This document shows, piece by piece, positions 12,248 through 57,333 of a DNA stretch of 64,000 bases. The first letter of the stretch is position 1. Each line of letters opens with the position of its first letter. Below the pieces are notes generated by a model, which was not told the origin of the DNA, searched no databases, and saw only the letters and a list, made by a program, of their open reading frames with translations. Origin of the DNA: Thermodesulfovibrionales bacterium (GTDB lineage: Bacteria > Nitrospirota > Thermodesulfovibrionia > Thermodesulfovibrionales > SM23-35); NCBI GenBank assembly GCA_963753165.1, contig CAVWBP010000013.1:51385-115384 (forward strand), written 5' to 3'. The position numbers and the translations under genes were made by a program.

Positions 12248-12311
12248 AAGGGGTTATGAATCCCTGAGTGGACGGCGTCAACGTGTATACTATTTTGAGA
12301 ACCTTAATGTG

Positions 12312-13307
12312 ATGAAAACACAGGGAATGAAGAAAAAAAGACTTGCCGTTACCATGGGCGACCCGGGAGGCATCGGGGCAGAAATCATAGTCCGGGCTGT
12401 CGCATCTCCTGCGGTCAGGAAATGCTGTATCCCCGTAATTATCGGAGATGCGGGCGTGATGCAGGAGGCAGTTGCACTCCTCAGATTGCCCACTGCAATA
12501 AAAACCGTGGGTTCACCTGAAGAAATAAAGTCGGTACAGAACACAATCCATGTTATTGATATGAAAAGCATTCCCGGGATAAAAAAACGTATGCCGACGT
12601 CTGAAGGAGGTGCTGCATGCGCACGCTATATCAGAAAGGCGGTCGAGCTTGCTGCGGAGAAAAAGGTTGACGGGGTTGTTACCGCGCCGATATCAAAGGA
12701 AGCCATGAAGATGGCAGGGTTGCCATGGCCGGGCCATACGGAGATGCTTGCAGAATTGACAGGGACAAAAGACTACGCCATGATGCTCGCGGGAGGTCCC
12801 CTCCGTGTCATACTGGTTACCATACACACGGCGATCAGTCAGGTGCCGGCGCTAATCACGAAACAGAGGGTCCTGAAAACGATCAGGCTTGCAGAGAAGG
12901 CATGCAGAATGCTGAATATCAAAAAACCAAGAATCGCAGTTGCAGGGCTCAATCCGCATGCCGGAGAGGCGGGGATGTTCGGAGATGAAGAGATCAATGC
13001 AATCATCCCTGCGATACGGGCTGCGGTGAAAGAGGGCATTCCTGTCTCAGGCCCCTGGCCCCCGGATACGGTTTTCCATAAGGCGTATGCAGGTGAGCTC
13101 GACATGGTTGTCTGCATGTATCACGACCAGGGATTGATTCCCCTCAAGATGATCGCATTCGACACCGGGGTGAATGTTACGGTTGGATTGCCTTTTGTCC
13201 GCACTTCTCCTGACCACGGGACAGCCTATGACATCGCATGGAAAGGGATTGCGAATCCTTCAAGTATGATCGAAGCGATAAAAGTTGCTTCGACATTGAA
13301 AATTTAG
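12312..13307 (+). CDS. pdxA: 4-hydroxythreonine-4-phosphate dehydrogenase PdxA
   Basis: Hallmarks MGDPGGIGAEI, GHTEMLAE, GLNPHAGE, YHDQGLIPLK, TSPDHGTAYDIA. Alternative starts are GTG 12309 and ATG 12327. Confidence 0.9.
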   Translation: MKTQGMKKKRLAVTMGDPGGIGAEIIVRAVASPAVRKCCIPVIIGDAGVMQEAVALLRLPTAIKTVGSPEEIKSVQNTIHVIDMKSIPGIKKRMPTSEGGAACARYIRKAVELAAEKKVDGVVTAPISKEAMKMAGLPWPGHTEMLAELTGTKDYAMMLAGGPLRVILVTIHTAISQVPALITKQRVLKTIRLAEKACRMLNIKKPRIAVAGLNPHAGEAGMFGDEEINAIIPAIRAAVKEGIPVSGPWPPDTVFHKAYAGELDMVVCMYHDQGLIPLKMIAFDTGVNVTVGLPFVRTSPDHGTAYDIAWKGIANPSSMIEAIKVASTLKI

Positions 13308-23408: not shown

Positions 23409-24670
23409 ATGGGTTTTGGAAGACAGACGTACGAATTTCTCAAAGCAGCCAGTATAGCTCATGCGAAATGGGATTATGAAGTTTCAATGAGTATTATCAA
23501 AAACCGCAAGAAACTTCTTATCCTGTTCGTCCTCACTGCTGCCGATACTGGCTGTATCGCTCTCGACGGCAGCGGATATGATAGGAGGGAAGACTGCATA
23601 TGCGCCGGCGCACTATACGACGACAATCTTCGTCGTCTCGATTGCGGTTGGTCTTGCAGCCGGTCTTATCACCGGGTGTATCGGCGCAGGCGGTGGGTTT
23701 ATCATCACCCCGGCGCTGATGGCAGCAGGGGTGAAAGGTATCCTTGCAGTCGGAACAGACGTATTCCATATCTTTGCAAAAGCCATTATGGGAACGACTG
23801 TCCATAAGAAACTCGGGAACGTCTCGGTCAAGCTGGCAATGGCATTTCTTGTCGGGTCAAGCGGTGGTACCTTTATCGGCGGCTGGATCAATAAGACACT
23901 CTACAACAAAGACCCCCTGCTCAGTGAAGCCTTTATCAGTTCGGTGTATGCAGTATTGCTCGGGTTCCTCGGTTTCTACGCAATGCTTGATTTTATCAAG
24001 TCAACGAGGAAATCGGCAGCCGGCGGCGGAGGCGGACATGATGCCCATGGCGGTCCATCGGGTATGACCTCTCTTGCAGTGAGTATCCAGAAGATCAACA
24101 TCCCGCCAATGATAACCTTTGACGAGGACTTCGGCGGAAGAAGAATTTCCTGGCTTTTTGTTGCTATAGGCGGAGTTATCGTCGGCATGCTCGCTGCGAT
24201 CATGGGAGTCGGCGGCGGCTTTGTCACCTTCCCGATGTTCGTCTATATCTTCGGTGTTTCAACAGCAACAACAGTAGGCACCGATATCCTCCAGATCATC
24301 TTCACGGCAGGACTCGCATCGATAGCACAGTATGCAATTTACGGGTACGTGTTCTACACCCTGGCAATGGGGATGCTCCTTGGTTCATTGATCGGAATCC
24401 AGGTCGGCGCGCTCACGACAAAGGTTGTGAAGGGAATCCATATCAGGGGATTCTATGCAATGTCAATCATTGCAGGCTTTATCAACAGGGCTACGACACT
24501 TCCCAAGAAACTGACTGAGCTTGAATATATCAATGTGCCTAAACCGACTATACACTATTATCGAAGCTAGTGGGAAACTATCTGTTCTGGATTGTTGTCG
24601 GGATTCTTCGGGATTTGGGTTATCAGTAAGTTCTTTATGAATATTGAAAGCATTAAGAGAGGAGGGATAG
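23409..24670 (+). pseudogene. Extended TSUP/TauE-SafE-family permease, copy 1 (at least 3 frame disruptions)
   Basis: Paralog of 26513..27764. The N-terminus MGFGRQTYEFLKAASIAHAKWDYEVSM is in ORF 23409. An extra base near 23533 shifts into ORF 23578..24570 (GLITGCIGAGGGFIITPALM, GVGGGFVTFPMFVY). The tail needs two more shifts (about 24545 and 24595) to match the copy 2 ending. Confidence 0.7.
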
Positions 24671-26034: not shown

Positions 26035-26137
26035 GTCATTCCCGCTCAATGAGTCGTTGGGGAATCCTTCCGGAGTGATGCGTTCTACATAACAATACAG
26101 GAAGGCAAAGAAAGATTCCGGACGAGCCGGAATGACA
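26035..26137. repeat. Composite palindromic repeat, GTCATT...AATGAC superfamily (type A)
   Basis: GTCATTCCCGCTCAATGAGTCGTTGGGGAATCC ... AAGATTCCGGACGAGCCGGAATGACA. Copies lie at 34164-34237 and 50727-50796. Confidence 0.7.
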
Positions 26138-26512: not shown

Positions 26513-27764
26513 ATGAGTTTTCCAAGACAGCTTTACGAATTTCTTAGAGCAGCCAGTATAGCTCATGCTAAATGGGACTACGAAGTTTCGATGAACATCA
26601 TCAGGAACAAGAAGAAACTCCTGATCCTTTTCATTCTCCTCCTGCCGATCCTGGCTGTGTCATTGACAACTGCGGCAGATATGCTGGGCGGCAAAACCGC
26701 ATACGCCCCTGCACATTATACGACAACTATTTTTGCAGTATCAATTGCTGTCGGTCTTGCTGCCGGCCTGATCACAGGGTGTATCGGCGCCGGTGGCGGA
26801 TTCATAATAACACCAGCCCTTATGGCAGCGGGAGTGAAGGGTATTCTCGCGGTAGGAACAGACGTATTCCATATCTTTGCAAAGGCCATTATGGGAACGG
26901 TTGTCCATAAAAAACTCGGGAACGTCTCGGTAAAACTTGCAATGGCCTTTCTTGTCGGCTCCGGCGGCGGGACATTCATAGGCGGCGCCATTAACAAAGG
27001 GCTTTACAACAAGGACCCTCTCCTGAGCGAGGCGTTTATCAGTCTGGTATATGCAATACTCCTTGGATTCCTCGGTTTTTATGCGATGATTGACTTCATT
27101 AAATCGGCAAAGAAACCCAGTTCCGGCGGAGCTGCACGACGCTCATGGCGGTCCTTCGGGAATGACTTCAGTGGCAATAAGCATACAAAAGATAAATATC
27201 CCGCCAATGATTACCTTTGACGAGGACTTCGGAGGAAGAAGGATTTCATGGCTTTTTGTTGCAATCGGCGGCGTTATCGTCGGCATGCTCGCTGCGATCA
27301 TGGGGGTCGGCGGCGGCTTTGTTACCTTCCCGATGTTTGTCTACATCTTCGGTGTTTCCTCCATGACCACAGTCGGAACCGATATCCTTCAGATCATATT
27401 CACCGCAGGCCTTGCATCGATCGTGCAGTATGCGATTTACGGGTATGTGTTCTACACGCTTGCAATGGGAATGCTCCTTGGCTCACTGATCGGCATTCAG
27501 GTCGGCGCCCTCACTACAAAGGTAGTGAAGGGAATACATATCAGGGGATTCTATGCAATGTCCATTATTGCAGGGTTTATTAACAGAGCCGCAACCCTTC
27601 CGAAGAAGCTGACCGAACTCGAAATCATCAATATGTCAAAACCTGTCACTTCGGCGATTGAGACCGCAGGGAATTATATATTCTGGATTGTCGTTGCGGC
27701 CTTTGGCATCTGGGTCCTCGGGAAATTTTTCGCGAACATAAAGATGTTGAGAGAGGAGGAATAA
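26513..27764 (+). CDS. Extended TSUP/TauE-SafE-family permease, copy 2 (one apparent frameshift near 27115)
   Basis: ORFs 26513..27220 and 27090..27764 join at ...IKSAKK / PVPAELHDAHGGPSGM. Both TSUP half-repeats are present (GCIGAGGGFIITPALM; GVGGGFVTFPMFVY). It also has an extra N-terminal amphipathic segment plus TM and a Gly/His-rich central loop. Confidence 0.8.
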
Positions 27765-34125: not shown

Positions 34126-34281
34126 TAGAACCTATCTCAAAATCGGTTCTTGTTTATTTTAATGTCATTCCCGCAAGCGAAGCACGTCGGGAATCCTTCT
34201 GAAAACAAAGAAAGATTCCGGACAAGCCGGAATGACATACTAATGGCATATCATGAAATATCAATTTTGAGATAGGTTCTA
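34126..34281. mobile_element. MITE-like element with perfect 18-bp terminal inverted repeats, carrying a nested type-A palindromic repeat
   Basis: TAGAACCTATCTCAAAAT (34126-34143) and ATTTTGAGATAGGTTCTA (34264-34281). The interior 34164-34237 is GTCATTCCCGCAAGCGAAGCACGTCGGGAATCC...AAGATTCCGGACAAGCCGGAATGACA. It has no coding capacity. Confidence 0.65.
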
Positions 34282-46590: not shown

Positions 46591-46910
46591 TGAGAGAGGA
46601 AGGCGGATACGGAGCAGGAAGTGTATTTCTTTCATTTCTTCTCGGGGGTATCGTGGGGGCAGGGTTCGCTCTGTTACTTGCGCCTCAATCGGGTGATGAG
46701 ACAAGAAAGAAGATACGTCAACTGACTGACGATGTCAAGGGGAAGACAATGGATTATGTCGAAGAGGTAAAAGGGAAGGTTACCACCGGCATAGACAGGG
46801 GCAAGGATTATTATGAGGAGAAGAAGTCTGTAGTTGCTTCGGCTATCGAGGCGGGAAAAGAGGCCTACGACAAGGAGAAAGAGAGGTTATCCAAGGAGCC
46901 GAATGCATGA
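46590..46910 (+). CDS. YtxH-domain protein
   Basis: GGIVGAGFALLLAPQSGDETRKKIRQL followed by charged helices. The 3' end overlaps the hypA start by 8 nt. Confidence 0.6.
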   Translation: MREEGGYGAGSVFLSFLLGGIVGAGFALLLAPQSGDETRKKIRQLTDDVKGKTMDYVEEVKGKVTTGIDRGKDYYEEKKSVVASAIEAGKEAYDKEKERLSKEPNA

Positions 46911-47247
46911 GGTTTCGATTGCCCAGGGTCTGCTTGATATCGTCGTAGAGAATTGTAAAAAACAAGGCTATTCAGGGATAGAATCCATAAAGGTCAAAAT
47001 CGGAAAAGCTGCCGGGGTAGTTCCCGATTCTCTTCTTTTTGCATTTGAGTCGATGAAGGTGGATACCATAGCAGAAAAGGCCACTCTTATCATTGATCAA
47101 GTTCCGATCAGCGGTTTCTGTAACAGTTGCAAGTCCAATTTTACCGTAGATGATGCATACGTTATCTGTTGCCCGCATTGCAACGCTTTTTCGATCAGGG
47201 TAGATACAGGCAGGGAATTAAATGTCGACGAGATGGAGGTATTCTGA
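46903..47247 (+). CDS. hypA: Hydrogenase nickel-insertion protein HypA
   Basis: MHEVSIAQGLLDIV and zinc site CNSC...CPHC. ATG 46903 is in frame with ORF 46834..47247. Confidence 0.85.
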   Translation: MHEVSIAQGLLDIVVENCKKQGYSGIESIKVKIGKAAGVVPDSLLFAFESMKVDTIAEKATLIIDQVPISGFCNSCKSNFTVDDAYVICCPHCNAFSIRVDTGRELNVDEMEVF

Positions 47248-47250
47248 TTC

Positions 47251-47898
47251 ATGAAAGTGAAAGTGGTCACAAATATTCTTGAGGCGAATGACAGGATTGC
47301 CGATGAAAACAGGAGGATTTTCCAGGAGGCCGGTGTCTATGTGATCAATATGATGAGCGGCCCCGGAGCAGGCAAGACCTCCCTTCTTGTGCGGACTATC
47401 CAGGAAATGCAGAAGAAAGTGAAGATCGGCGTTATAGAGGGCGATATCGCCGGAACCGATGATGCAGAAAGAATCGACAAGCTTGGTGTTCCGGTCGTTC
47501 AGATCAATACAGGCGGTGGATGTCATCTGGACGCAAATATGATAAGGGAAGTACTGCCGGATATGCCACTGAAAGACCTGGATCTGCTTATAATCGAAAA
47601 TGTCGGAAATCTTGTCTGTCCTGCGGAGTTCAAGGTCGGAGAGGAGATGAAGGTTATGCTCCTCAGCGTTGCCGAAGGCCATGATAAACCCCTGAAATAT
47701 CCTCTGATGTTCCAGGAATCATCTGCGCTTCTTCTCAACAAAATCGACCTCCTCCCTTATATAGATGTAGATATGGCAAAGATCAGGAAGGACTCTCTGT
47801 CACTGAACCCGAAGCTGAAACTATTCGAGGTTTCATGCAAGACCGGTCAGGGAATCAGTGAATGGGCGCAGTGGCTTGAGACCCTTGTAAAGAAATAA
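47251..47898 (+). CDS. hypB: Hydrogenase nickel-incorporation GTPase HypB
   Basis: P-loop GPGAGKTS, GGGCHLDA, ENVGNLVCPAEF, NKIDL. Confidence 0.9.
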   Translation: MKVKVVTNILEANDRIADENRRIFQEAGVYVINMMSGPGAGKTSLLVRTIQEMQKKVKIGVIEGDIAGTDDAERIDKLGVPVVQINTGGGCHLDANMIREVLPDMPLKDLDLLIIENVGNLVCPAEFKVGEEMKVMLLSVAEGHDKPLKYPLMFQESSALLLNKIDLLPYIDVDMAKIRKDSLSLNPKLKLFEVSCKTGQGISEWAQWLETLVKK

Positions 47899-47953
47899 GC
47901 AAGAATTCCTGAATTCGGGCGGACAGCTATCTGACACCATTGTATTTTTCTCT

Positions 47954-48081
47954 GTCATTATCCGGCTTGACCGGATAATCCAGATATTTAAAGAAAATAG
48001 TCCTCTCAATATATCATTAATATGAAAGCCCTGTTGAATATAATAAGATTCCTGGATTCCCCGATCAAGTCGTGGAATGAC
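47954..48081. repeat. Composite palindromic repeat, GTCATT...AATGAC superfamily (type B, long spacer)
   Basis: GTCATTATCCGGCTTGACCGGATAATCCAG (47954-47983) ... CTGGATTCCCCGATCAAGTCGTGGAATGAC (48052-48081). Confidence 0.7.
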
Positions 48082-48174
48082 GCATTTTTTACTGACATTA
48101 TCGGATCAAGTATGCAAAAACCTTATTTTCTTCACATAGTTTGTTTCGAATTCACTGAGTATTAGTTGTATCAT

Positions 48175-50665
48175 ATGAAACCCGTTCGCACCAAAATAGT
48201 AGTGAAAGGCATTGTGCAGGGGGTTGGATTCCGGCCATTTGTCTATAGTCTTGCCAGATCAAGCCGGCTGAAAGGTTTTGTCCTGAATTCCTCCGAAGGG
48301 GTCATTATCGAGATTGAAGGAGAGAATACCCCTGACTTTATTGACCGGCTGCAAAAAGAAGCCCCGCCTCTCTCCCGGATCATGTCCGTTGATATAACCA
48401 CCCTCCCATACCACGGCTATAAGGATTTCACCATTCTGAAAAGCAAGGATGCGGGAAGTTTTACCCTGATTTCAGCAGATGTCTCCATCTGCCAGGACTG
48501 TTTCCGGGAACTTCTCGACAAGAATGACCGGCGATATCTCTATCCGTTCATCAACTGCACCAATTGCGGTCCCCGGTATACCATAACTAAATCTGTTCCT
48601 TATGACAGGCCAAACACCACCATGGCTGTGTTCAAACTTTGTCCTGACTGCGACAGGGAATACCATGACCCACTCGACAGGAGATTCCATGCACAACCAA
48701 ATGCCTGTCCTGTCTGTGGGCCACAGGTGGACAGTATGAAAGTAAGAAGTGAAAAGTTAAGAGGTAGAGGAAAGCGGAAAAAAGCAAAAAAGCTCCAATT
48801 GAAGAAACAATAAGACTTCTGAAACAAGGGAAAAATTCTTGCCGATCAAAGGACTCGGGGGCTTTCATTTGGCCTGCGATGCGATGAACGAAGACGCGGT
48901 GAACAGACTGAGACTCAAAAAGAGGAAAAGCAATAAACCCTTTGCCCTTATGTCGCCGGATATCGAAACAATAAAAAAATTCTGCAGGGTATCCGAAGCA
49001 GAGGAGGCATATCTTACCTCGAACAAAAGGCCGATTGTCCTTCTCAATAAGATAAAAAACGGACTTCCTGAGGCAGTTTCACCCCACAATCCCTGCATAG
49101 GCTTCATGCTGCCGTATACACCATTGCATTATTTGTTGTTCTGTTATCCGATGGAAGCTTGCAGGCGCTCCCGACCTTCCACCTTGCTATCCTTCTCCTT
49201 CCCCCTTGGGGGGGGATGGGGGTGCATTTCGACGCCCTTGTCATGACCAGCGGCAATATCGCGGAAGAACCGATTGTGATTGAGAATGATGAGGCAGTGT
49301 CAAAGCTTTCCGATATTGCCGATGCGTTTCTCATGCATAACAGGGATATTTTCATGCGGGCTGACGACTCAGTGGTCAGAGTGAATAGTTTTATCACAGA
49401 CCCCTCGTCATCTCCTGCTCCGAAAGGGGGGAACGGGGGAGGGACGGTAGCATCTCCCGGTAAAAATCAACCGTCCCTTTCGTTTGTCCGCCGCTCCAGG
49501 GGCTATGTGCCCGACCCTGTTCTCCTGCACGAAGACGGGCCTGAGGTGCTCGGCTGCGGCGCTGATATCAAAAACATATTCACTCTTACCAAAGGGAGCT
49601 TTGCGATCCCGAGTCAGCATATCGGTGATATGGAAAATTATGAGACTCTCCGGTTTTTTGAGGAGAGCCTCAGGAATCTCAAGTCCGTGTACCGGGTTGA
49701 GCCGGTTGCGCTTGCCTATGACCTCCATCCCATGTATCTCTCAACACAGTGGGCCCTGCGGCAGGAGAATATTAAAAAGATACCGATTCAGCATCATTAT
49801 GCCCATGTTGGATCAGTCATGGCCGAAAAAGGGATCAAAGAGAAGGTTATCGGGGTGACTTTCGACGGTACGGGATATGGTACCGACGGAGGTCTCTGGG
49901 GCGGAGAATTTCTGATTGCTGATATTAAAGGATTCAGGAGAGCATGCCACTTCAGATACATCCCGCTTCCGGGCGGAGAAGCTGCGGTAAAAGAGCCGTG
50001 GAGGATAGCGGTCAGTTATATAAAGAATATCACCGGGAATGAAGTTATGCCCTATCTCGATTCAATCGGCTTTATCAGGAGATACGGCAGGGAGAAAATA
50101 CACTCTCTCCTGCAGATTCTCGACAACAGACAGTTTTCCCCGCTTTCCTCAGGCGCCGGAAGACTGTTTGATGCTGTTTCGGCGCTGATCGGCGTCTGTG
50201 ATGACAATACCTTTGAAGGAGAGGCGGCAATAGCCCTTGAGGCGATAACCTATCCCGATATTATCGATGATTATCCTGTTGATATAAAATTCAAGGAGAC
50301 GATGGAAGTCGATTTTTCCCATACTATCCTGAGAATCATGGAAGAGATAAAAGAGAAGAAAGAGAAAGGGATTATTGCTACAAAATTCCATAATACCATC
50401 ATAACGGTCATTGAACGGGTGGTGGAGAAATTATCCTCGGTGACCGGAATAAGGGACGTTGCCCTGTGCGGCGGTGTGTTCCAGAATATGTATCTCCTTG
50501 AACGGACGATTGACAGGCTTCGGTCAATCGGGCATGAACGTCCTGATCCACGATAAAGTCCCGACCAACGATGCAGGAATATCACTCGGTCAGGCGTATA
50601 TAATAAGAGAGAGGATAAAAGCGGGAATCTATAGAATAGAGGCAAATACTAAATTCGAAATCTAA
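48175..50665 (+). pseudogene. hypF: Carbamoyltransferase HypF, interrupted by at least 4 frameshifts and carrying two extra low-complexity insertions
   Basis: Acylphosphatase domain (VKGIVQGVGFRPF) and two zinc fingers (CQDC...CTNCGPRY; CPDC...CPVCGP). Also IKGLGGFHLACDA, PYTPLHYLL, LVMTSGN, RRSRGYVP, GGVFQN, PTNDAGISLGQA. Pieces: 48166..48813, 48839..49246, 49159..50556, 50459..50665, plus a short third-frame stretch EETIRLLKQGK. Shifts occur at A6/A6/A5 runs (48778-48835), a G8 run (49208-49215) and GGG (about 50530). Confidence 0.85.
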
Positions 50666-50887
50666 ATCCTAAACTGAAAAATTACTAAGGAGTTTAGAAG
50701 TATAACCGAGATTCACATGTCAATTTGTCATTCTGGCTCGTCGGGATCGACCGTACAGTTAATGCAAAGCAAGATTCCGGACAAGCCGGAATGACATAAT
50801 TAAGGTATTTAATTGCCGACTTAGTAGTATTTAGGATTTTGATATTTGAAATTTGAAATTGTTTAGAATTTAGATATTAGAATTTAG
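50644..50887. repeat. CTAAAT-rich imperfect inverted arms flanking a type-A palindromic repeat (50727-50796)
   Basis: Left arm AAATACTAAATTCGAAATCTAAATCCTAAAC (50644-50674; it also encodes the last hypF codons). Right arm GTTTAGAATTTAGATATTAGAATTTAG (50861-50887), nearly identical to the arm at 54239-54270. Confidence 0.6.
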
Positions 50888-50914
50888 TTTTTAAATAATA
50901 TTTGGAGGACTTGA

Positions 50915-51979
50915 ATGAAGAAAATAGCAGCCGCAATAAAGAAACTGACGGAGAGAATCGGTCGTCCGGTAAAGTTTATGGAAGTCTGTGGAACTCATAC
51001 CGTGGCAATTTTCAGGCACGGCATCAGAGGCGTCATTCCGAAGGAGATCAGTCTCCTGAGCGGTCCGGGATGTCCTGTCTGTGTGACTCCGATTAAGGAC
51101 GTTGATGCTGCAATAGCGATTGCGAATCTTGACGGAACCATCCTTACCACATTCGGCGATATGATGAGGGTGCCCGGCAGCAAGAAGTCGCTTTTTCACG
51201 CACAGGCAGAAGGCGCCAAGATCAGCATTGTCTATTCTCCGATGGATGCGCTGAAGATGGCTGCAGAGAACAAAGACAAGAATATCGTCTTCTTTGCCAC
51301 CGGTTTTGAGACAACGTCGCCCTCTATCGCCGGGACGCTCTTTGAGGCGTCCCGATCAGGGATTAACAATTTTTATATTTACTCGGCACACAAGGTTGTC
51401 CCGCCGGCGCTCAAGGCCTTGCTCGATTCTCCCGACCTGAAGATCGACGGGTTTATCCTCCCCGGGCACGTGAGCACAATCATCGGAACTGAACCATATG
51501 AATTCATCGCAGCTGATTATTCAATTTCATCAGTCGTAACCGGATTTGATGCAGATGATATCCTCACTGCCATCCTGATGCTGCTCGATCAGATTGCATC
51601 AGGCAGGGCAGCAGTTGAAATCCAGTATACCAAGGTCGTAAGAAAAGAGGGCAACCCGAAAGCGATGTCACTGATCAATGAATTTTTCGAGCCCTGTGAC
51701 GCCAACTGGAGAGGGATCGGAGTGATACCCGGAAGCGGACTGAAACTGAGAAAGCAAGCGAGCAGGTTCGATGTCAGCAACGTGTTCAATCTTGATATCC
51801 CGGACGCCCCGGAGCCGAAAGGCTGTCAGTGCGGACAGGTTTTGACTGGAGTCAAGATACCGACAGACTGCAGGCTTTTCGGAAAGGCATGCACACCAGA
51901 ACACCCGGTCGGCGCATGCATGGTGAGCACCGAGGGAAGCTGCGCAGCGTATTATAAGTATTCGGGAGTTGTGCGATAA
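50915..51979 (+). CDS. hypD: Hydrogenase maturation Fe-S protein HypD
   Basis: MEVCGTHT, GPGCPVCVTP, GFETT, PGHVS, and a C-terminal Cys cluster. Confidence 0.92.
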   Translation: MKKIAAAIKKLTERIGRPVKFMEVCGTHTVAIFRHGIRGVIPKEISLLSGPGCPVCVTPIKDVDAAIAIANLDGTILTTFGDMMRVPGSKKSLFHAQAEGAKISIVYSPMDALKMAAENKDKNIVFFATGFETTSPSIAGTLFEASRSGINNFYIYSAHKVVPPALKALLDSPDLKIDGFILPGHVSTIIGTEPYEFIAADYSISSVVTGFDADDILTAILMLLDQIASGRAAVEIQYTKVVRKEGNPKAMSLINEFFEPCDANWRGIGVIPGSGLKLRKQASRFDVSNVFNLDIPDAPEPKGCQCGQVLTGVKIPTDCRLFGKACTPEHPVGACMVSTEGSCAAYYKYSGVVR

Positions 51980-52033: not shown

Positions 52034-52654
52034 TTGGCGACTGCTGATCTGTATCTCGACAAAATTGATTTTATGAAGTATCTCCCGGAAGGGTGCAGGG
52101 AGAACTGCGGGTATTCTTCCTGTAAAGAGTTTCTCGACACCCTGCAAAAAGACAACCATGCGCTTCGCAAATGTCCTTTTATCAAAAGAAATCAGACCTA
52201 TGCGTTCGAAGCCGTCGGCATGATAAAGGATTTATGGCCCCAAGTCCCGCTCCTCACGCATCCGAGACCCGGCCCTACAGGACTGGTCGAACTGAATCAG
52301 CCGGACGAAAAAGCCATAGTACTCATCACGGGGAACAATAAATTCACCCAGGATGTCCTTCTCACGGTTCTGGGAACTACCCTGTGCCCCTTTTATGTTG
52401 TCTTTACTGATACAGACGGCAACACCATAGACATGGCCATGATTTACAAAACTTTCACGGCAGAGAGGATATCCAGGGCTATACAGATATCAGGGATAGG
52501 TGAAAAACTCTTCACAAAACTGATGATAATCCCCGGACTTGCAGCCCAGCTTCAGGAAGATATCAGGAAAGAAACGAGATGGACTGTGAGGGTAGGGCCT
52601 GAGTGTGCTGCGGAACTACCGCTTTATTTCTCTGAGATTTGGATTCCGCCGTAG
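52034..52654 (+). CDS. Small Fe-S / corrinoid-domain-like protein (N-terminal Cys4 module + CFeSP large-subunit/HgcA-like Rossmann domain)
   Basis: YLPEGCRENCGYSSCKEFLDTLQKDNHALRKC has spacing C-x3-C-x4-C-x16-C, close to the C-x2-C-x4-C-x16-C module of RnfB and AcsC N-termini. The C-terminal half (GLVELNQPDEKAIVLITGNNKFT...VVFTDTDGN...KLMIIPGLAAQL...WTVRVGPECAAELPLYF) aligns by eye with the corrinoid-binding domain pattern VLVTANYKLT...LVLDTKG...LVLPQLGAPGV...GPVRA.DLPAYL. TTG 52034 or ATG 52073 as start. Confidence 0.5.
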   Translation: MATADLYLDKIDFMKYLPEGCRENCGYSSCKEFLDTLQKDNHALRKCPFIKRNQTYAFEAVGMIKDLWPQVPLLTHPRPGPTGLVELNQPDEKAIVLITGNNKFTQDVLLTVLGTTLCPFYVVFTDTDGNTIDMAMIYKTFTAERISRAIQISGIGEKLFTKLMIIPGLAAQLQEDIRKETRWTVRVGPECAAELPLYFSEIWIPP

Positions 52655-52774: not shown

Positions 52775-53776
52775 ATGGAAGATCGTATTCTGCTGGGACA
52801 TGGAAGCGGCGGGAGATTGATGTATCAGCTTATTCGAGAACACTTTATGCCCAAATTCGGGATGAAGTCCCTCAACGATTCCGCTGTGCTGAAGGGTATC
52901 AATAAAGGGAAACTTGCGTTCACCACAGACTCCTATGTTGTGTCCCCGATCTTTTTCCCGGGCGGCAACATCGGAGAACTTGCTGTCTACGGAACGGTGA
53001 ACGACCTTGCAATGGTCGGCGCAAAACCGTTGTATATAACCTCAGGCCTTATCCTGGAAGAAGGATTCCCGCTCGATGATCTGAAGAAAATACTCACCTC
53101 CATGTCGGAAGCGGCAAAAACGGCAGGAGTAAAGATAGTGGCCGGAGATACGAAAGTGGTAAACAAGGGGAAAGCAGACGGTATTTTTATCAATACCGCA
53201 GGAATTGGGGTCATTGATGAGGGGATAGAAATTTCTCCGTCAAGAGTGAAACCGGGCGATAAAGTGATTCTCAGCGGCCCGATTGGCAACCATGGTGTTG
53301 CTATCATGGCAGAGAGGAATGGCCTGAGCTTTAATCCCCCTGTGGTCAGCGACACTGCGCCGTTGAACGGGCTGGTGAGAGAGATGCTGAAAAAGACCAA
53401 AAAGATTCACACGTTAAGAGACCCGACCAGGGGTGGACTTGCGACAACCCTGAAAGAGATCGCAACTGATTCAGGATACTGTGTTCTGATCGAAGAGGAT
53501 CTGATTCCGGTTCCCCCGGGTGTCAGGGGCGCATGCGAACTACTCGGTCTTGATCCACTCTATATCGCCAATGAAGGAATATTGTCGGCCATAGTAAGCA
53601 GTGATGCAGCCGAATCAGTGCTCAAGACGATGAAAAAGCATCCGCTCGGCAAAGAGGCACGGATTATCGGAGAAGTACAAAAGTCACCGACCGGAATGGT
53701 CCTCCTCAAAACAGCCATCGGCGGAACAAGAATTATCGAGATGCTGTCAGGAGACCAGCTGCCGAGAATATGTTAA
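52775..53776 (+). CDS. hypE: Hydrogenase maturation protein HypE
   Basis: GHGSGG, a PurM-like fold, and the C-terminal PRIC motif. Confidence 0.92.
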   Translation: MEDRILLGHGSGGRLMYQLIREHFMPKFGMKSLNDSAVLKGINKGKLAFTTDSYVVSPIFFPGGNIGELAVYGTVNDLAMVGAKPLYITSGLILEEGFPLDDLKKILTSMSEAAKTAGVKIVAGDTKVVNKGKADGIFINTAGIGVIDEGIEISPSRVKPGDKVILSGPIGNHGVAIMAERNGLSFNPPVVSDTAPLNGLVREMLKKTKKIHTLRDPTRGGLATTLKEIATDSGYCVLIEEDLIPVPPGVRGACELLGLDPLYIANEGILSAIVSSDAAESVLKTMKKHPLGKEARIIGEVQKSPTGMVLLKTAIGGTRIIEMLSGDQLPRIC

Positions 53777-53777
53777 T

Positions 53778-54270
53778 AAAAAATCCTAAATTCTAAATAC
53801 TAAACCCTAAACAATGACTAATGACAGAAATAAAAAATTCAAAACAGTATGACTTGGAAGACAGGACGCTTAATTTCACCAAGAATGTCATACGTTTGAT
53901 AAATGAGATTCCAAAATCACTTGCAAATGGAGAAATTAGCAGACAATTGGTAAGATCAGCAGGCTCAGTAGGCGCAAATTATATTGAAGCAAATGAATCA
54001 TTAAGCAAAAAAGACTTTGTAATGCGAATAAAAATATGTAGAAAAGAAGCAAAAGAAAGTCGTTATTGGCTTCGATTAATACAATGTAATGATGGGATAA
54101 TAGATGAACAGAGGAAGTTGGTACAGGAGTCGCAGGAACTCATGAAAATATTTGGAGCAATACTTGAAAAGACAAATCCTAAACCCTAAGTTCGAATACT
54201 ATACTGTTTTAAACATTGGATATTTGTTTTTTGAATTTGTTTAGGATTTAGATATTAGAATTTAGGAATT
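53778..54270. mobile_element. Inverted-repeat-bounded cassette carrying a four-helix-bundle (Avd / 23S rRNA IVS protein-like) gene
   Basis: Left arm AAAAAATCCTAAATTCTAAATACTAAACCCTAAAC (53778-53812). Right arm GTTTAGGATTTAGATATTAGAATTTAGGAATT (54239-54270). About 27 of 32 positions are complementary by eye. A partial third arm copy lies at 54173-54190. Confidence 0.45.
53821..54189 (+). CDS. Four-helix-bundle protein (23S rRNA intervening-sequence protein / Avd-like family)
   Basis: LEDRTLNFTKNVIRLINEIPKSLANGEISRQLVRSAGSVGANYIEANESLSKKDFVMRIKICRKEAKESRYWLRLI matches the characteristic family pattern. Confidence 0.8.
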   Translation: MTEIKNSKQYDLEDRTLNFTKNVIRLINEIPKSLANGEISRQLVRSAGSVGANYIEANESLSKKDFVMRIKICRKEAKESRYWLRLIQCNDGIIDEQRKLVQESQELMKIFGAILEKTNPKP

Positions 54271-54280
54271 AATTTTGGAG

Positions 54281-54993
54281 ATGTTAGCTTTGTGTTAACA
54301 TCGACCACGTCGCAACTATCAGACAGGCCAGGAGAGGGATCGAACCTGACCCTGTAATGGCTGCCACGCTTGCAATCCTTGGAGGCGCTGATGGAATCAC
54401 GGTTCATCTCCGTGAGGACAGGCGGCATATCCAGGACAGGGACCTGAAGATATTACGAGAGTTTATCCCGAATGAACTGAACCTCGAAATGGCGGCCACT
54501 AAGGAAATGGTCGGTATTGCAATCAGGACAAAACCCGATTTGGTCACCCTGGTGCCTGAAAAGAGACTGGAACTTACCACAGAGGGCGGGTTGGATGTGA
54601 AATCCCACAAGAAGACGCTTCAGGAGGCTATCAGGAGAATCCACGGGATTGGTATCCCGGTCAGTCTTTTCATAAATCCTCAGAAAGAAACTCTTGAGAT
54701 AGCGAAACAGACCGGCGCTGATATGGTCGAACTCCATACGGGGATGTATGCTGATGCAAAATCCGGGAAGAAAGAAAAAGAACTCACAAGAATAGTCAGC
54801 GCAAAGAAGACGGCCCTCGATCTGGAGCTTCTCGTCAATGCAGGGCATGGACTGAATTATTTTAATGTTTCACCGGTTGCTTCCATACAAGGCATCAGAG
54901 GTCTTTACATAGGCCATAGCATAATTTCCCGGGCAGTGTTTGTCGGCCTGGAGAGGGCAGTGACGAGAGATGAAGGAATTAATATATCTATAA
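54281..54993 (+). CDS. pdxJ: Pyridoxine 5'-phosphate synthase PdxJ (apparent 1-nt indels near both ends)
   Basis: ATG 54281 (MLAL) is out of frame by one base with [20 protein letters not shown]...[16 protein letters not shown]...ELHTG...NAGHGL (ORF 54357..55028 frame, open from 54285). Dropping one base near 54963 gives the consensus ending [11 protein letters not shown] with stop at 54991-54993. That stop is followed by AAGGAGG and the ATG of the next gene. Confidence 0.85.
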
Positions 54994-55009
54994 AGGAGGC
55001 TGTGCGTAA

Positions 55010-55471
55010 ATGGAAAAAAATATTCTGATTTTGTGTTGCGGATATCCATATGCAGGTGATGCCGGATTCGGGTATCATGTATCGAAAGCGTTGGAGAAAA
55101 TAAAACTGCCTGAAAATGTTGATTTAATGGAGGTCGGTTTTTCTGCATGCATGATACCCCATGTTATCGAGGGCAAGGATAAAATGATAGTGGTTGATAT
55201 TTTTTATACACAGGACAACCCAGGAACGGTAGTCCGTTTAACGCAGGAGGAGGTTCCGCTTATAGTGAAGGGGAAGACAGATACTTCGAAATTACATCTC
55301 ATGGAAACACTGGAACAGATAAAATTGACCGGCAAATGCCCTGAGACCCTTTTTGTCGGAATCGTGCCGGTACGAACAGAGATGGAGGACGAAAAGTTGA
55401 CTCCTGAAATTCAGGGCAAGGTGCCGGTTGTCATAGAGATGATCATGAAAGAAATAAACTCATCGCGCTAA
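55010..55471 (+). CDS. Hydrogenase maturation endopeptidase (HybD/HyaD-like)
   Basis: [20 protein letters not shown] (GNxxxxDDGxG-like), MIVVDIF, KLHLME, and ETLFVGIVP in family order. 153 aa. Confidence 0.7.
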
Positions 55472-55482
55472 CCCTTATCGGT

Positions 55483-57333
55483 GTGAATAAACAAAAAGCC
55501 TTCAAGGCTGCCTTTTTCATTCTTTTTTTTGTTTTTACGTTCGCTCTTTTCTCAGTCGAAATCAGAGACTCTGATTTCTGGTGGCATCTGAAGACAGGCG
55601 AATATATTTCTGCGACAGGAGATCTCCCGTCAACTGATCCCTTTGCATACACTTCCCTCACAAAAGACCCGGTAAATCCTGAGTCTAAAAGAATTAAATT
55701 CATTCTCAGACAATACTGGCTTGCACAGCTTATTTTTTACTGGATATATTCTCTGTTCAGCTTCCAGGGAATAATACTCATGAGGGCCTCGATCCTGACC
55801 CTCCTGATTTTCCTCGTCTACAGGAGCGTACGCAGGGAAGGTGTGGGTCTATATTTTTCGATCGCGCTTATGGTGCCGGCAGTCCTGGTATTTTCATCCA
55901 ATTTTACCGGTGAAAGGCCGCAGCTCTTTTCTTTTCTTTTTCTTTTCTTTTGATTTTTTTGCTTGAAGGGTTCAGAATCCGGTCTCAGAGAGCGGAAGAC
56001 CGGTCGCAGGGAAAAGCGGACAGCCGGTGGTACCTGCTCCCGCTCCCGGTTATCACTCTTCTCTGGGCAAATATGCACGGCGGGTTTTTCGTCGGAAATC
56101 TTATAATCCTCGGATATCTCGTCTCTGAATTAATCAAATATCTGACAAGGAAATTCGGGACGCATCTCCCTGTTTCTTCTCTCAAAGCGCTCGTTATCAT
56201 GGGTATCCTTGCGGTCATTGTCTCTTTCATCAATCCCAATGGATTTAATGTCGTGTCAATCCTGGTGGAACTTGAACAGAGTCGCTACAAGGAGACTATT
56301 ATTGAAGCTATGTCTCCATTTACCATAGGGATACACTATGCTGATGTTGCACTGTTTTTCCTTCTCCTTGGGCTCAGTGGCATCATCCTTGCGATGAATT
56401 TCAGGAAACTCGATCTCACTGATGTGATTTTTTTCTCAGGGCTCACATTTATGGGACTCAATGCGGTAAGATTCATTCCATTTTTCATACCATATGCTGT
56501 TCTTCTCATTGCCCGTTACGGGATGCAGACGATTGACAGATCGTCTCTGAGGGAAAAAACTGCGGCCATCAGGAATGCCGCCGGTGTTGCTGTAGCTTTT
56601 TTCCTTATTGCGCTTATCATTTTCATGTCTGTGAAATATGATATCGTCGTCAAAAGCGGAGTGAGACAGGAAAAATACCCGGAGGGCGCCTCGAAATTCC
56701 TGAGAGAGAACAGGATTGCGGGGAATATGTTCAATCCCTACTACTGGGGTGGATACCTCATATGGGATGCTGTCCCCGGAGTATAAAGTCTTTATTGACG
56801 GAAGAAGCCTTATAGAGGATGTCTATTTCCAGTACCTGAATGTTTTCCAGGCGAAATCCCAGTTATTTGGGGATATTCCTGAATGGAAGGCTATTCTGAA
56901 GGCATACAAGGTTGATTTCATCATAACCTTTTCCGTAGACAAATTTACAGGGAACCTGGTTCCCTTAATCCCTGCACTCTATCATGACCCTGAGTGGCAT
57001 CTTGTCTACATGGACAAAATCTCTCTTGTTTTTCTCAGACAGAGGCTTGAGAACCAGCATTTTATCGATAAATTCGGGCTGCCGAAAGACTGGTTATGGG
57101 GCGAAGTGGTCACCGAAGCACTTGTGAAGGCTAAGGATTCGCCGCGAAGAGCAAACTTTTATGTTACTATTGGCGATGCATTCATGGCAAAGAAGAGCTA
57201 CATGGATGCGAGGGCAGCGTATGAAAAGGCGTTGCAAACAGATCCTGAGAATTCAACTGTCCGGGAGAGACTGCAATTCCTCAATAGGCATTTGGTTAGT
57301 GCAGCCTTCGCACCAATAATCATGAATCCTTAA
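55483..57333 (+). CDS. Polytopic membrane protein with C-terminal TPR (GT-C glycosyltransferase-like), two apparent frameshifts
   Basis: ORFs 55483..55953, 55950..56786 and 56716..57333 are consecutive, with junctions in T-rich runs near 55940 and near 56765. It has at least 10 hydrophobic helices and the motif DSDFWWHLKTGEYI...LPSTDPFAYTS. TPR-like tail YVTIGDAFMAKKSYMDARAAYEKALQTDPEN. Confidence 0.45.

What the first reader, a model, noticed from the sequence alone, without database searches (positions are those of the whole stretch)
52034..52654. Mini corrinoid/Fe-S-type protein between hypD and hypE in a hyp cluster that lacks hypC
Seen in the sequence:
- The hyp genes run hypA-hypB-hypF-hypD-X-hypE.
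- No ORF with a HypC-like MCL(A/G)IPG start exists anywhere in the window.
- The hypF-hypD spacer, where hypC usually sits, contains only repeats.

What X (206 aa) looks like:
- Its N-terminus carries a four-cysteine module, LPEGC-x3-C-x4-C-x16-C. The spacing is almost that of the putative Fe-S domain at the N-termini of RnfB and the acetyl-CoA-synthase corrinoid protein AcsC/CdhE.
- Its C-terminal 130 aa align by eye, block for block, with the corrinoid-binding Rossmann-like domain shared by the CFeSP large subunit and HgcA. The matching blocks are VL(V/I)T(A/G)N.K(L/F)T, (L/V)V.DT.G, L(V/I)(L/I)P.L.A and V..GP..A.(D/E)LP.Y(L/F).
- It lacks the TIM barrel of CFeSP, the TM domain of HgcA, and the NVWCAAGK cap-helix cysteine; it reads NTIDMAMIYK instead.

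Inference: this is a stand-alone Fe-S plus possible corrinoid-domain protein, genetically embedded in the machinery that builds the Fe(CN)2CO centre. As far as I know, the anaerobic source of the CO ligand is unresolved. A CFeSP-like C1-handling protein here is therefore a provocative candidate, though this is speculative.
Basis: partly seen in the sequence, partly recalled or inferred. Interest (0 to 1): 0.7.

Follow-up and report, generated by a model that had tools for sequence, protein, structure and literature searches.

The report
Stand-alone mini corrinoid/iron-sulfur protein
The 206-aa gene between hypD and hypE is a real member of an uncharacterised family that looks like the acetyl-CoA-pathway corrinoid iron-sulfur protein with its central barrel removed, but it sits among hydrogenase-maturation genes in only one bacterial lineage, so a role in making the hydrogenase CO ligand is not supported.

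Summary
Window 52034-52654 (+) encodes an intact 206-aa protein, here called X. Its N-terminus is a CFeSP/RnfB-type four-cysteine module. Its C-terminal ~125 aa are homologous to the corrinoid-binding Rossmann domain of the CFeSP large subunit and HgcA. It has no TIM barrel and no membrane domain. No hypC is present in the window or within 10 kb of X in 85 related loci.

X belongs to a conserved family found in at least 258 species-level genomes of Nitrospirota and Thermodesulfobacteriota. The family keeps the T-x-N-x3-T cobamide-tail motif. It is defined by an invariant Asp-Met at the position of CFeSP Thr374 / HgcA Cys93, beneath the cobalt, and by a Cys in GPxCAAELP. It scores far below the curated cut-offs for CdhE, HgcA and HgcAB-like.

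The functional inference is not supported. X lies next to hypD/hypE only in a Thermodesulfovibrionales-type clade, in a syntenic block that also carries pdxJ. Elsewhere X follows purH-folC, sits with PilZ/DUF885 genes, follows hisG, precedes purB-era, or ends a ccm operon.

Best reading: a redox-activatable cobamide (methyl/C1) carrier with unknown partners, and a new variant of a known kind.

The parts
52034..52654 (+). Gene X: 206-aa stand-alone mini CFeSP-like protein (TTG start; stop included).
   Evidence: the ORF; 322 homologues, most 204-215 aa; homology to the CFeSP large subunit and HgcA.
52061..52192 (+). N-terminal CFeSP/RnfB-type putative [4Fe-4S] module, aa 10-53. Cys codons: C21 52094-52096, C25 52106-52108, C30 52121-52123, C47 52172-52174.
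   Evidence: aligns to residues 5-59 of 2h9a/4c1n/4djd (domain i-E 0.0035 with the family profile). PF04060 E 0.006. C25, C30 and C47 invariant in 44 close homologues; the first Cys sits at position 21 or 22.
52193..52273 (+). Linker, aa 54-80, containing the conserved WP-VPLLTHPRP. It stands where CFeSP has its ~250-aa TIM barrel.
   Evidence: W68, P69, V71, P72, P77 and R78 invariant; alignment jumps from 2h9a residue ~48 to ~317.
52274..52651 (+). C-terminal corrinoid-binding-type Rossmann domain, aa 81-206.
   Evidence: PF03599 E 2e-14; domain alone scores CdhE 75.8, HgcAB-like 63.2 and HgcA 41.9 bits. AF2 block-mean pLDDT mostly 69-92 over aa 81-200 (one block at 61). Foldseek 9a0b rmsd 3.0 over 127 columns.
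52328..52348 (+). T99-G-N101-N-K-F-T105: the T-x-N-x3-T motif shared with CFeSP (T339/N341/T345) and HgcA. It is the predicted pocket for the cobamide nucleotide tail.
   Evidence: T/S, N and T conserved in 24/24 X-like, 5-6/6 sister and 52-53/53 full-length CdhE representatives. (PMC7305189): HgcA Thr60 and Thr66 contact B12. The mapping of these residues to X is my inference.
52430..52435 (+). D133-M134, the family-defining pair at the N-terminus of the cap helix. M134 aligns with CFeSP Thr374 and, by inference, with HgcA Cys93.
   Evidence: ungapped HMMER alignment, X residue n = 2h9a residue n+240; helix 134-139. D 24/24 and M 24/24 in X-like representatives, against Leu/Thr in most full-length CFeSP. 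(PMC4934906): Thr374 lies on the alpha face, 3.2-4.6 A from Co.
52604..52606 (+). C191 in GPxCAAELP, a family-specific cysteine at the N-cap of the last helix, after the last beta strand.
   Evidence: Cys 23/24 in X-like representatives, Ser in the sister group, Asp/Glu in 49/53 full-length CFeSP; strand 184-187, helix 192-198.
46903..51979 (+). Context upstream: hypA (46903-47247), hypB (47251-47898), hypF (48166-50665, broken into four reading-frame pieces), hypD (50915-51979).
   Evidence: the ORFs; 84-98% identity to L005/L037 genes. Pfam HypA, cobW, HypF and HypD on those relatives.
52775..55471 (+). Context downstream: hypE (52775-53776), a 23S-rRNA-IVP-like gene (53821-54189), pdxJ (54357-55028), a HycI-type maturation protease (55010-55471).
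   Evidence: the ORFs. L005 carries AIRS/AIRS_C, 23S_rRNA_IVP, PdxJ and HycI in the same order; identities.

Best explanation
**What it is**
X is a soluble two-domain cofactor protein. It corresponds to the CFeSP large subunit (AcsC/CdhE/CfsA) with the central TIM barrel deleted.

**Proposed mechanism**
- Shown by homology: the N-terminal four-Cys module is of the type that binds a [4Fe-4S] cluster.
- Shown by homology: the C-terminal Rossmann domain is of the type that binds a cobamide in the base-off form.
- Inferred: the cobamide nucleotide tail sits in the conserved T-x-N-x3-T pocket.
- Inferred: the invariant Met134, preceded by Asp133, sits under the alpha face of cobalt, where CFeSP has Thr374 and HgcA has the Cys93 ligand.
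- Inferred by analogy with CFeSP and HgcAB: the cluster passes low-potential electrons to re-reduce Co(II) to Co(I). Co(I) then picks up a methyl or other C1 group from a donor enzyme acting in trans and hands it to an acceptor. Both partners are unknown.

**Genomic position**
Its place between hypD and hypE is synteny inherited within one Nitrospirota clade. It is not a conserved functional link to [NiFe]-cofactor assembly.
For: **Both domains are homologous to CFeSP**
- HMM and PDB matches cover both domains.
- A structure search returns only CFeSP large subunits and the HgcAB model at E < 1e-3.

**Cofactor-pocket residues are kept; family-specific residues differ**
- T99, N101 and T105 are conserved as in 52-53 of 53 full-length CdhE representatives.
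- D133, M134 and C191 are specific to the family and near-invariant: 24/24, 24/24 and 23/24 cluster representatives.
- M134 aligns to Thr374 of 2h9a. That residue faces the cobalt (PMC4934906).

**A related subfamily sits with corrinoid genes**
A sister mini subfamily member lies directly downstream of a RACo-type corrinoid reductive activase and near a B12-binding protein (L087). This supports a corrinoid role for this architecture.

**Context varies by lineage**
- 20 hyp-linked loci, all from Nitrospirota / Thermodesulfovibrionales-type MAGs.
- About 20 loci with purH-folC-X, where the folC stop overlaps the X start (seen in L039).
- About 13 loci with the PilZ / X / DUF885 / methyltransferase neighbourhood.
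- 5 loci with hisG-X-znu.
- X-purB-era, dnaN/X and X-AsmA in single loci.
- ccmEFABCD-X.
- The X tree tracks taxonomy, as expected for a vertically inherited stand-alone gene.
- pdxJ is embedded in the same hyp block.
Against: - No cofactor has been demonstrated. The AF2 N-terminal half is of only moderate confidence (pLDDT 53-69).
- Some distant family members have lost the Cys cluster (P0127, P0128, P0135, P0149), so the Fe-S module is not universally required.
- No methyltransferase, RACo or small-subunit partner is encoded next to X itself in any surveyed locus, so the methyl-carrier role rests on analogy only.
- Within the Nitrospirota clade the hyp-linked state looks ancestral. The hypD stop to X start gap is only 1-9 bp in seven genomes. 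A clade-specific functional tie to hyp therefore cannot be excluded.
Confidence: 0.55

Rival explanations
1. One reading: X is a lineage-specific accessory of [NiFe]-cofactor maturation. It would supply a C1 unit that becomes the CO ligand, or low-potential electrons, to the HypCD/HypE machinery.
For: - X lies between hypD and hypE in 20 Nitrospirota-type loci. hypD is immediately upstream in 12 of them and hypE immediately downstream in 14.
- The hypD-to-X gap is 1-9 bp in seven loci.
- The hyp-linked state appears basal in the Nitrospirota part of the X tree.
- The anaerobic source of CO and the electron donor to HypD are both unresolved, and C1 metabolism is suspected (PMC12134894).
- hypC is absent from the cluster.
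Against: - No hyp gene lies within 10 kb of X in any Thermodesulfobacteriota locus except one hypE about 4.7 kb away (L046). The same holds for at least nine Nitrospirota-labelled loci with flanks on both sides.
- The same block also conserves pdxJ, ribD, DUF948 and YtxH genes, which have nothing to do with hydrogenases.
- Opposite-strand TPR genes and same-strand glycosyltransferase or membrane-protein genes interrupt hypD-X or X-hypE in about nine loci.
- Only 258 of 185,579 species genomes matched the family motifs.
- From my own knowledge: E. coli matures hydrogenases anaerobically without making B12.
Confidence: 0.08
2. X is a degenerate CFeSP relic that no longer binds a cobamide. It would be, for example, a small Fe-S redox or scaffold protein, or bind a different ligand through Met134 and Cys191.
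For: - The residue under the cobalt and the acidic residue at position 191 of CFeSP are both replaced.
- The TIM barrel and the small subunit that clamp the corrinoid in CFeSP are missing.
- Some members also lack the Cys cluster.
Against: - The T-x-N-x3-T tail-pocket motif and the DTxG, PG and GP motifs are as conserved as in bona fide CFeSP.
- HgcA shows that this domain can hold a corrinoid without a TIM-barrel partner (PMC7305189).
- A sister mini protein sits next to RACo.
- Conservation at 54-88% identity across 44 sequences, with 45 invariant positions, argues for a specific ligand site.
Confidence: 0.2
3. The ORF is an annotation or frameshift artefact in an error-rich assembly.
For: The window has several genes broken by frame shifts: hypF in four pieces, and a 607-aa membrane protein in three pieces.
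Against: - X is uninterrupted and has the same length as its homologues.
- It is 97% identical to P0001 and 88% to P0002, both 206 aa.
- The family spans two phyla.
Confidence: 0.01

Closest known systems
CFeSP large subunit (AcsC / CdhE / CfsA; PDB 2h9a, 2ycl, 4c1n, 4djd, 9fzy)
   Same: - N-terminal C-x2/3-C-x4-C-x16-C Fe-S module.
- C-terminal corrinoid-binding Rossmann domain with the T-x-N-x3-T, DTxG, PG and GP motifs.
- Best sequence and fold matches.
   Different: - No ~250-aa TIM barrel.
- No adjacent small subunit (AcsD/CdhD) or ACS/CODH genes.
- Asp-Met instead of Leu-Thr374 under the cobalt.
- Cys instead of Asp/Glu at position 191.
- NCBIfam score 92 against a cut-off of 306.
HgcA (mercury-methylation corrinoid protein) and HgcAB-like fusions
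   Same: - A stand-alone use of the same corrinoid-binding domain without a TIM barrel.
- A sulfur-containing residue at the cap-helix axial position (Cys93 in HgcA, Met134 here).
- A similar C-terminal ...GP...(D/E)LP.(F/Y)L block.
- Foldseek hit to 9a0b, rmsd 3.0.
   Different: - No N(V/I)WCA motif.
- No five-helix membrane domain.
- No adjacent hgcB.
- The Fe-S cluster is in cis, from a CFeSP-type module, rather than in a partner ferredoxin.
- Scores 41-63 bits against cut-offs of 275-285.
Sister 'mini' subfamily (P0158, P0161, P0166, P0168, P0173, P0187)
   Same: The same ~205-aa Fe-S plus corrinoid-domain architecture. It forms a separate branch from full-length CdhE in the domain tree.
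   Different: - Asn, His or Ser at position 134 and Ser at position 191.
- One member sits beside RACo and a B12-binding protein (L087), a context not seen for X.
HypX (aerobic CO-ligand synthase encoded in hyp clusters)
   Different: HypX is a formyl-THF transferase / formyl-CoA decarbonylase with no sequence relation to X. Its linkage to hydrogenase maturation is established experimentally, whereas X's is not conserved outside one clade.

Membership tests
CFeSP large subunit (AcsC/CdhE, NCBIfam NF003195) | N-terminal four-Cys [4Fe-4S] module | tested here: met
   C21, C25, C30 and C47 are present. The module aligns to 2h9a residues 5-59. PF04060 is weak in the window protein (E 0.006) but is precomputed for most homologues.
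CFeSP large subunit (AcsC/CdhE, NCBIfam NF003195) | Central TIM-barrel domain that docks the small subunit | tested here: not met
   The protein is 206 aa. Alignments cover only profile positions ~1-60 and 320-447 of 450.
CFeSP large subunit (AcsC/CdhE, NCBIfam NF003195) | C-terminal corrinoid-binding Rossmann domain | tested here: met
   PF03599 E 2e-14. Profile against 2h9a: 1.9e-18. Foldseek: E 2e-9.
CFeSP large subunit (AcsC/CdhE, NCBIfam NF003195) | Curated whole-protein score cut-off, and genomic partnership with acsD/cdhD, acsB and acsE | tested here: not met
   92 bits against a cut-off of 306. No CdhD, ACS or MeTr genes were among the neighbours annotated in the 85 loci. Not every neighbouring ORF was annotated.
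HgcA (NF040863) / HgcAB-like (NF043039) | Cap-helix N(V/I)WC(A/S) motif with the Cys ligand | tested here: not met
   X reads T-I-D-M-A-M at that position. Met is invariant.
HgcA (NF040863) / HgcAB-like (NF043039) | C-terminal five-helix transmembrane domain and an adjacent or fused HgcB ferredoxin | tested here: not met
   The protein ends at aa 206, right after the Rossmann domain. The neighbours are hypD and hypE. Scores are 62 and 41 bits against cut-offs of 285 and 275.
Hyp accessory protein (functionally tied to [NiFe]-cofactor synthesis) | Linkage to hyp or hydrogenase genes conserved across lineages | tested here: not met
   20 of 80 loci are hyp-linked, all in one Nitrospirota-type clade. 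The other lineages show at least five unrelated contexts.
Hyp accessory protein (functionally tied to [NiFe]-cofactor synthesis) | Genome-level co-occurrence with hyp; physical or genetic interaction with the Hyp proteins | not testable with these tools
   Only up to 10 kb on each side of X is held for each genome. No whole-genome or experimental data are available.
HypC/HybG/HupF chaperone (as a possible substitute for the missing hypC) | ~80-90 aa OB fold with the N-terminal Met-Cys2 iron ligand | tested here: not met
   X starts MATADLY and folds as Fe-S module plus Rossmann domain.
Cobamide-binding protein in general | Actually binds a corrinoid | not testable with these tools
   Only motif conservation and homology are available. 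Spectroscopy is needed.

The most novel reading that the evidence does not exclude
In the Thermodesulfovibrionales-type Nitrospirota, X has been recruited into the hyp operon and is translationally coupled to hypD in several genomes. There it would act as a corrinoid/Fe-S C1 or electron donor for anaerobic assembly of Fe(CN)2CO, giving a first handle on the unresolved anaerobic CO-ligand pathway. A lesser but also novel reading is that the family carries a Met-thioether axial ligand to cobalt, a coordination not known to me in corrinoid proteins.
Probability: 0.07. Interest if true: 0.9.

Novelty: new variant of a known kind. Interest (0 to 1): 0.4.

Why it matters
1. **A fourth branch of PF03599.** The family is uncharacterised, moderately widespread among anaerobes, and distinct from CdhD, CdhE and HgcA. 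A published PF03599 phylogeny resolved only those three clusters (PMC10083202). No curated NCBIfam model reaches its cut-off for these proteins.
2. **An unusual residue under the cobalt.** The invariant Asp-Met at the cobalt-facing cap-helix position suggests new axial chemistry. That would be of interest for understanding how Thr (CFeSP), Cys (HgcA) and possibly Met tune methyl transfer.
3. **A practical annotation risk.** JGI labels these 206-aa proteins 'CO dehydrogenase/acetyl-CoA synthase gamma subunit'. This can create false Wood-Ljungdahl calls in Nitrospirota and Desulfobacterota MAGs.
4. **The CO-ligand hypothesis is now bounded.** It cannot be general. It survives only as a low-probability, clade-specific possibility.

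Tried and rejected
**Searches for hypC**
- A regex for MC[LIVM][AGST][IVLM]P-type starts in six frames of the window and of 85 loci found nothing credible.
- tblastn of the window with E. coli HypC, E. coli HybG and T. kodakarensis HypC gave a best E of 0.2. For the 85 loci, the tblastn summary (E <= 1e-4, E. coli and T. kodakarensis HypC queries) listed no HypC hit.
- Whether hypC lies elsewhere in the genome could not be tested.

**Tool attempts that failed**
- The search for related loci with the broad alignment A2 failed because no stretch was conserved enough. I repeated it with the X-like subset A3.

**Literature**
- No held paper that I searched describes a corrinoid protein in hyp clusters or this mini family.

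**Hypotheses rejected**
- X as a HypC substitute: it has no Cys2 and no OB fold.
- X as a frameshift fragment: it is intact and matches its homologues in length.
- The folate theme in other contexts (purH-folC-X, X-purB, hisG-X) as a hint to methyl-THF chemistry: the link is too weak, and these are ordinary housekeeping neighbourhoods.

**Other limits**
- Contexts of three further sister-subfamily proteins were on contigs too short to be informative.
- No terminator-like site was found in the hypD-X or X-hypE gaps of the window. Co-transcription there is possible but not shown.
Full report
**1. Observation**

The ORF at window 52034-52654 (+) is real: TTG start, 206 aa. It carries C21-x3-C25-x4-C30-x16-C47 and the string NTIDMAMIYK at residues 130-139.

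It is not a fragment. A search of 5.8 billion proteins returned 322 homologues, and nearly all of the best 120 are 204-215 aa. The closest are 97% and 88% identical and also 206 aa. They come from Thermodesulfovibrionales / Nitrospirota metagenome bins.

Residues upstream of the first in-frame ATG (A4, L6, Y7) are invariant in 44 homologues. The TTG start is therefore supported.

**2. Domain identity**

Sequence searches:
- Pfam gives CdhD PF03599 (E 2e-14), matching only the last ~115 positions of the model. It also gives a weak FeS PF04060 hit (E 0.006).
- NCBIfam gives CdhE-gamma (E 4e-26), HgcAB-like (9e-17) and HgcA (1e-10). All are far below their curated cut-offs: 92 vs 306, 62 vs 285, and 41 vs 275 bits.
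- Against PDB sequences, the only real hits are CFeSP large subunits (2h9a/2ycl, 4c1n, 4djd, 9fzy). Two separate stretches align. X 10-53 matches the N-terminal [4Fe-4S] domain, and X 72-203 matches the C-terminal corrinoid domain. The ~250-aa TIM barrel is skipped.
- A family profile raises these matches to 1.5e-25 overall. The Fe-S stretch scores i-E 0.0035 and the C-domain 1.9e-18.

Structure:
- An AF2 model has mean pLDDT 72.6 and pTM 0.70. The block-mean pLDDT is mostly 69-92 over residues 81-200, with one block at 61.
- Foldseek retrieves five CFeSP large-subunit entries (E 2e-9 to 9e-7) and the HgcAB model 9a0b (E 4e-6, 127 columns, rmsd 3.0). Nothing else passes E 1e-3.

**3. What defines the family**

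The exhaustive search of 1.84 billion cluster representatives found about 45 clusters of ~200-215-aa proteins, down to about 26% identity. Full-length (~440 aa) CdhE proteins appear only below them in the ranking.

A neighbour-joining tree of the corrinoid domain separates three groups:
- full-length CdhE;
- an X-like mini group;
- a sister mini group.

Conservation at key positions:

| Position in X | X-like (24 reps) | Sister (6 reps) | Full-length CdhE (53 reps) |
|---|---|---|---|
| T99 | T/S 24/24 | T 5/6 | T 52/53 |
| N101 | N 23/24 | N 5/6 | N 52/53 |
| T105 | T 24/24 | T 6/6 | T 53/53 |
| D133 | D 24/24 | D 5/6 | mostly Leu |
| M134 | M 24/24 | Asn, His or Ser | mostly Thr |
| C191 | C 23/24 | Ser | Asp/Glu 49/53 |

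- By my mapping, T99 and T105 correspond to HgcA Thr60 and Thr66. Cooper et al. used those two residues as B12 contacts conserved with CFeSP (PMC7305189).
- The HMMER alignment to 2h9a is ungapped from X84 onward (X residue n = 2h9a residue n+240). M134 therefore aligns with Thr374.
- Thr374 is the residue on the alpha face, 3.2-4.6 A from cobalt in CoFeSP crystals (PMC4934906).
- By inference, the same position corresponds to the HgcA Cys93 ligand.
- In the AF2 model M134 is the first residue of a short helix (134-139), as expected for a cap helix.
- A few distant X-like members lack the N-terminal cysteines.

**4. Genomic context: the key test**

The window order is hypA, hypB, hypF, hypD, X, hypE, a 23S-IVP-like gene, pdxJ, and a HycI-type protease. 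Three relatives with X at 56-75% identity show the same order.

A motif-based scan of one genome per species (185,579 species) found 258 genomes encoding a relative. The best 80 loci, with up to 10 kb on each side, were analysed.

tblastn with the window's Hyp proteins shows hypD and/or hypE next to X in 20 of the 80 loci, all from Nitrospirota / Thermodesulfovibrionales-type MAGs. Among these, together with one relative fetched earlier (L002):
- hypD is the immediate upstream gene in 12, with a gap of 1-9 bp in seven;
- hypE is the immediate downstream gene in 14;
- in about nine, TPR, glycosyltransferase or large membrane-protein genes separate X from hypD or hypE. The TPR genes lie on the opposite strand.

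Contexts elsewhere (ORFs clustered, annotated by Pfam):

| Lineage / locus | Context |
|---|---|
| 5 other Nitrospirota loci | hisG-X, followed on the opposite strand by three genes that read by eye as a znuBCA-type ABC transporter |
| 5 other Nitrospirota loci (4 with flanks on both sides) | X beside an unannotated ~179-aa protein and/or a PCC-domain gene |
| ~20 Desulfobacterales-type loci | split purH - folC-like Mur ligase - X; in L039 the ligase stop overlaps the X start |
| ~13 Syntrophobacterales-type loci | PilZ - X - DUF885 - a 462-aa protein with no Pfam match - SAM methyltransferase |
| L075 (ORM2a) | a NUDIX-like gene, X, then genes that read as purB and era (by-eye reading of the ORFs) |
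| L057 | a dnaN-like gene upstream, an aminopeptidase-like gene downstream (by-eye reading) |
| L082 | X followed by a large unannotated protein I took for AsmA-like (by-eye reading) |
| P0135 (a Cys-less member) | last gene of a ccmEFABCD operon |

Further points:
- A neighbour-joining tree of X follows taxonomy. In the Nitrospirota clade the hyp-linked state is basal, with the other contexts nested inside.
- The hyp block itself carries unrelated passengers: pdxJ, and upstream ribD, DUF948 and YtxH genes.
- In L032 a [NiFe]-hydrogenase small subunit, large subunit and protease lie just upstream of the block. The hyp genes therefore do serve a hydrogenase, but no hypC is there either.

**5. 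Interpretation**

X is best read as a vertically inherited, stand-alone gene whose neighbours change from lineage to lineage. Its hyp position is synteny by descent.

The idea that it provides the CO ligand cannot be general:
- the family motifs were found in only 258 species genomes;
- no Thermodesulfobacteriota locus has X adjacent to hypD or hypE (one has a hypE about 4.7 kb away);
- from my own knowledge, E. coli matures its hydrogenases anaerobically without synthesising B12.

The 2025 review confirms that the anaerobic CO source and the electron donor to HypD remain open, and that C1 metabolism is suspected (PMC12134894). A clade-specific recruitment therefore stays possible. The tight hypD-X spacing in some genomes is the only positive hint. 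I put this at about 7%.

**6. Mechanism proposed**

- Shown by homology: a [4Fe-4S]-type module, a corrinoid-type Rossmann domain, and conserved tail-pocket residues.
- Inferred: a base-off cobamide with Met134/Asp133 beneath the cobalt.
- Inferred: electron transfer from the cis cluster re-reduces Co(II), as in CFeSP, where the cluster has a reductive-activation role.
- Inferred: methyl or other C1 shuttling between unknown partners acting in trans.
- Supporting: a sister mini protein lies next to a RACo-type activase and a B12-binding protein (L087). This supports a corrinoid role for the architecture.
- The roles of Cys191 and Asp133 are unknown.

**7. Comparison and novelty**

X works like a CFeSP large subunit or HgcA corrinoid domain, but it is a member of neither family.
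- For CFeSP it lacks the TIM barrel and the partner genes and misses the score cut-off.
- For HgcA it lacks the NVWCA cysteine, the membrane domain and HgcB.

The published PF03599 phylogeny recognises only CdhD, CdhE and HgcA (PMC10083202). No paper in the held library that I searched describes this family. I rate it a new variant of a known kind, of moderate interest.

**8. Other observations**

- The window has several genes broken by frame shifts. hypF runs through frames 1-2-1-2 between 48166 and 50665, against single ORFs of 817-827 aa in relatives. A 607-aa membrane protein is split across 55483-57333. This points to indel errors or pseudogenes. X is intact.
- A palindromic intergenic element occurs three times, including once in the hypF-hypD spacer.
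- The 20 large ORFs scanned between 266 and 38885 contain no hydrogenase structural gene.

Noticed in passing
window 48166-50665: hypF is broken into four pieces in alternating frames (48166-48813, 48839-49246, 49159-50556, 50459-50665). Relatives have one ORF of 817-827 aa. It is either a pseudogene or the result of assembly indel errors.
   Followed up: partly
window 55483-57333: A membrane protein that is 605-607 aa in relatives (L006 15629-17452) is split into three ORFs here (156, 278 and 205 aa). The TauE-like genes at 23578-24567 and 26513-27217 also look fragmented. This points to window-wide frame-shift noise.
   Followed up: partly
window 26114-26136, 34214-34236, 50773-50795: A palindromic intergenic element with the core TGTCATTCC...GATTCCGGAC(A/G)AGCCGGAATGACAT occurs three times; 0 matches are expected by chance. 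One copy lies in the hypF-hypD spacer, flanked by AT-rich 'aaatttgaaat' repeats. It could be a REP/MITE-like element or a terminator.
   Followed up: partly
window 54357-55028 (pdxJ) and 12309-13307 (pdxA): pdxJ sits between hypE and the hydrogenase maturation protease in most hyp-linked loci. It is a clear example of an unrelated gene riding in this block. pdxA lies 40 kb away.
   Followed up: partly
window 53821-54189: A 122-aa gene of the '23S rRNA intervening sequence protein' type (PF05635 in the L005 counterpart) is inserted between hypE and pdxJ. It is present in only some relatives.
   Followed up: no
L032 52-3042: A [NiFe]-hydrogenase small subunit (partial), a 520-aa large subunit and a maturation protease lie directly upstream of the ribD/DUF948/YtxH/hypA... 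block in this Nitrospirota MAG. There is no hypC here either.
   Followed up: partly
L087 1578-7214: A sister-subfamily mini CFeSP (P0166) lies directly downstream of cobW, a 135-aa ORF and a RACo-type reductive activase (Raco_middle, RACo_C_ter, Fer4). A B12-binding (PF02607/PF02310) protein is next to it on the other strand.
   Followed up: partly
L091-L093 (e.g. L091 2429-7621): An X-like protein that has lost the N-terminal cysteines (P0135) is the last gene of a ccmE-ccmF-ccmA-ccmB-ccmC-ccmD cytochrome c maturation operon. Its start overlaps the preceding 51-aa gene.
   Followed up: no
protein hits P0001-P0120: JGI names these 206-aa proteins 'CO dehydrogenase/acetyl-CoA synthase gamma subunit (corrinoid Fe-S protein)'. 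That name could produce false Wood-Ljungdahl pathway calls in MAG surveys.
   Followed up: no
L039, L044, L049 and about 17 other Desulfobacterales-type loci: purH is split into separate MGS/IMP-cyclohydrolase (~228 aa) and AICARFT (~416 aa) genes. These are followed by a folC-like ligase and then X, all on one strand. In L039 the ligase stop overlaps the X start.
   Followed up: partly
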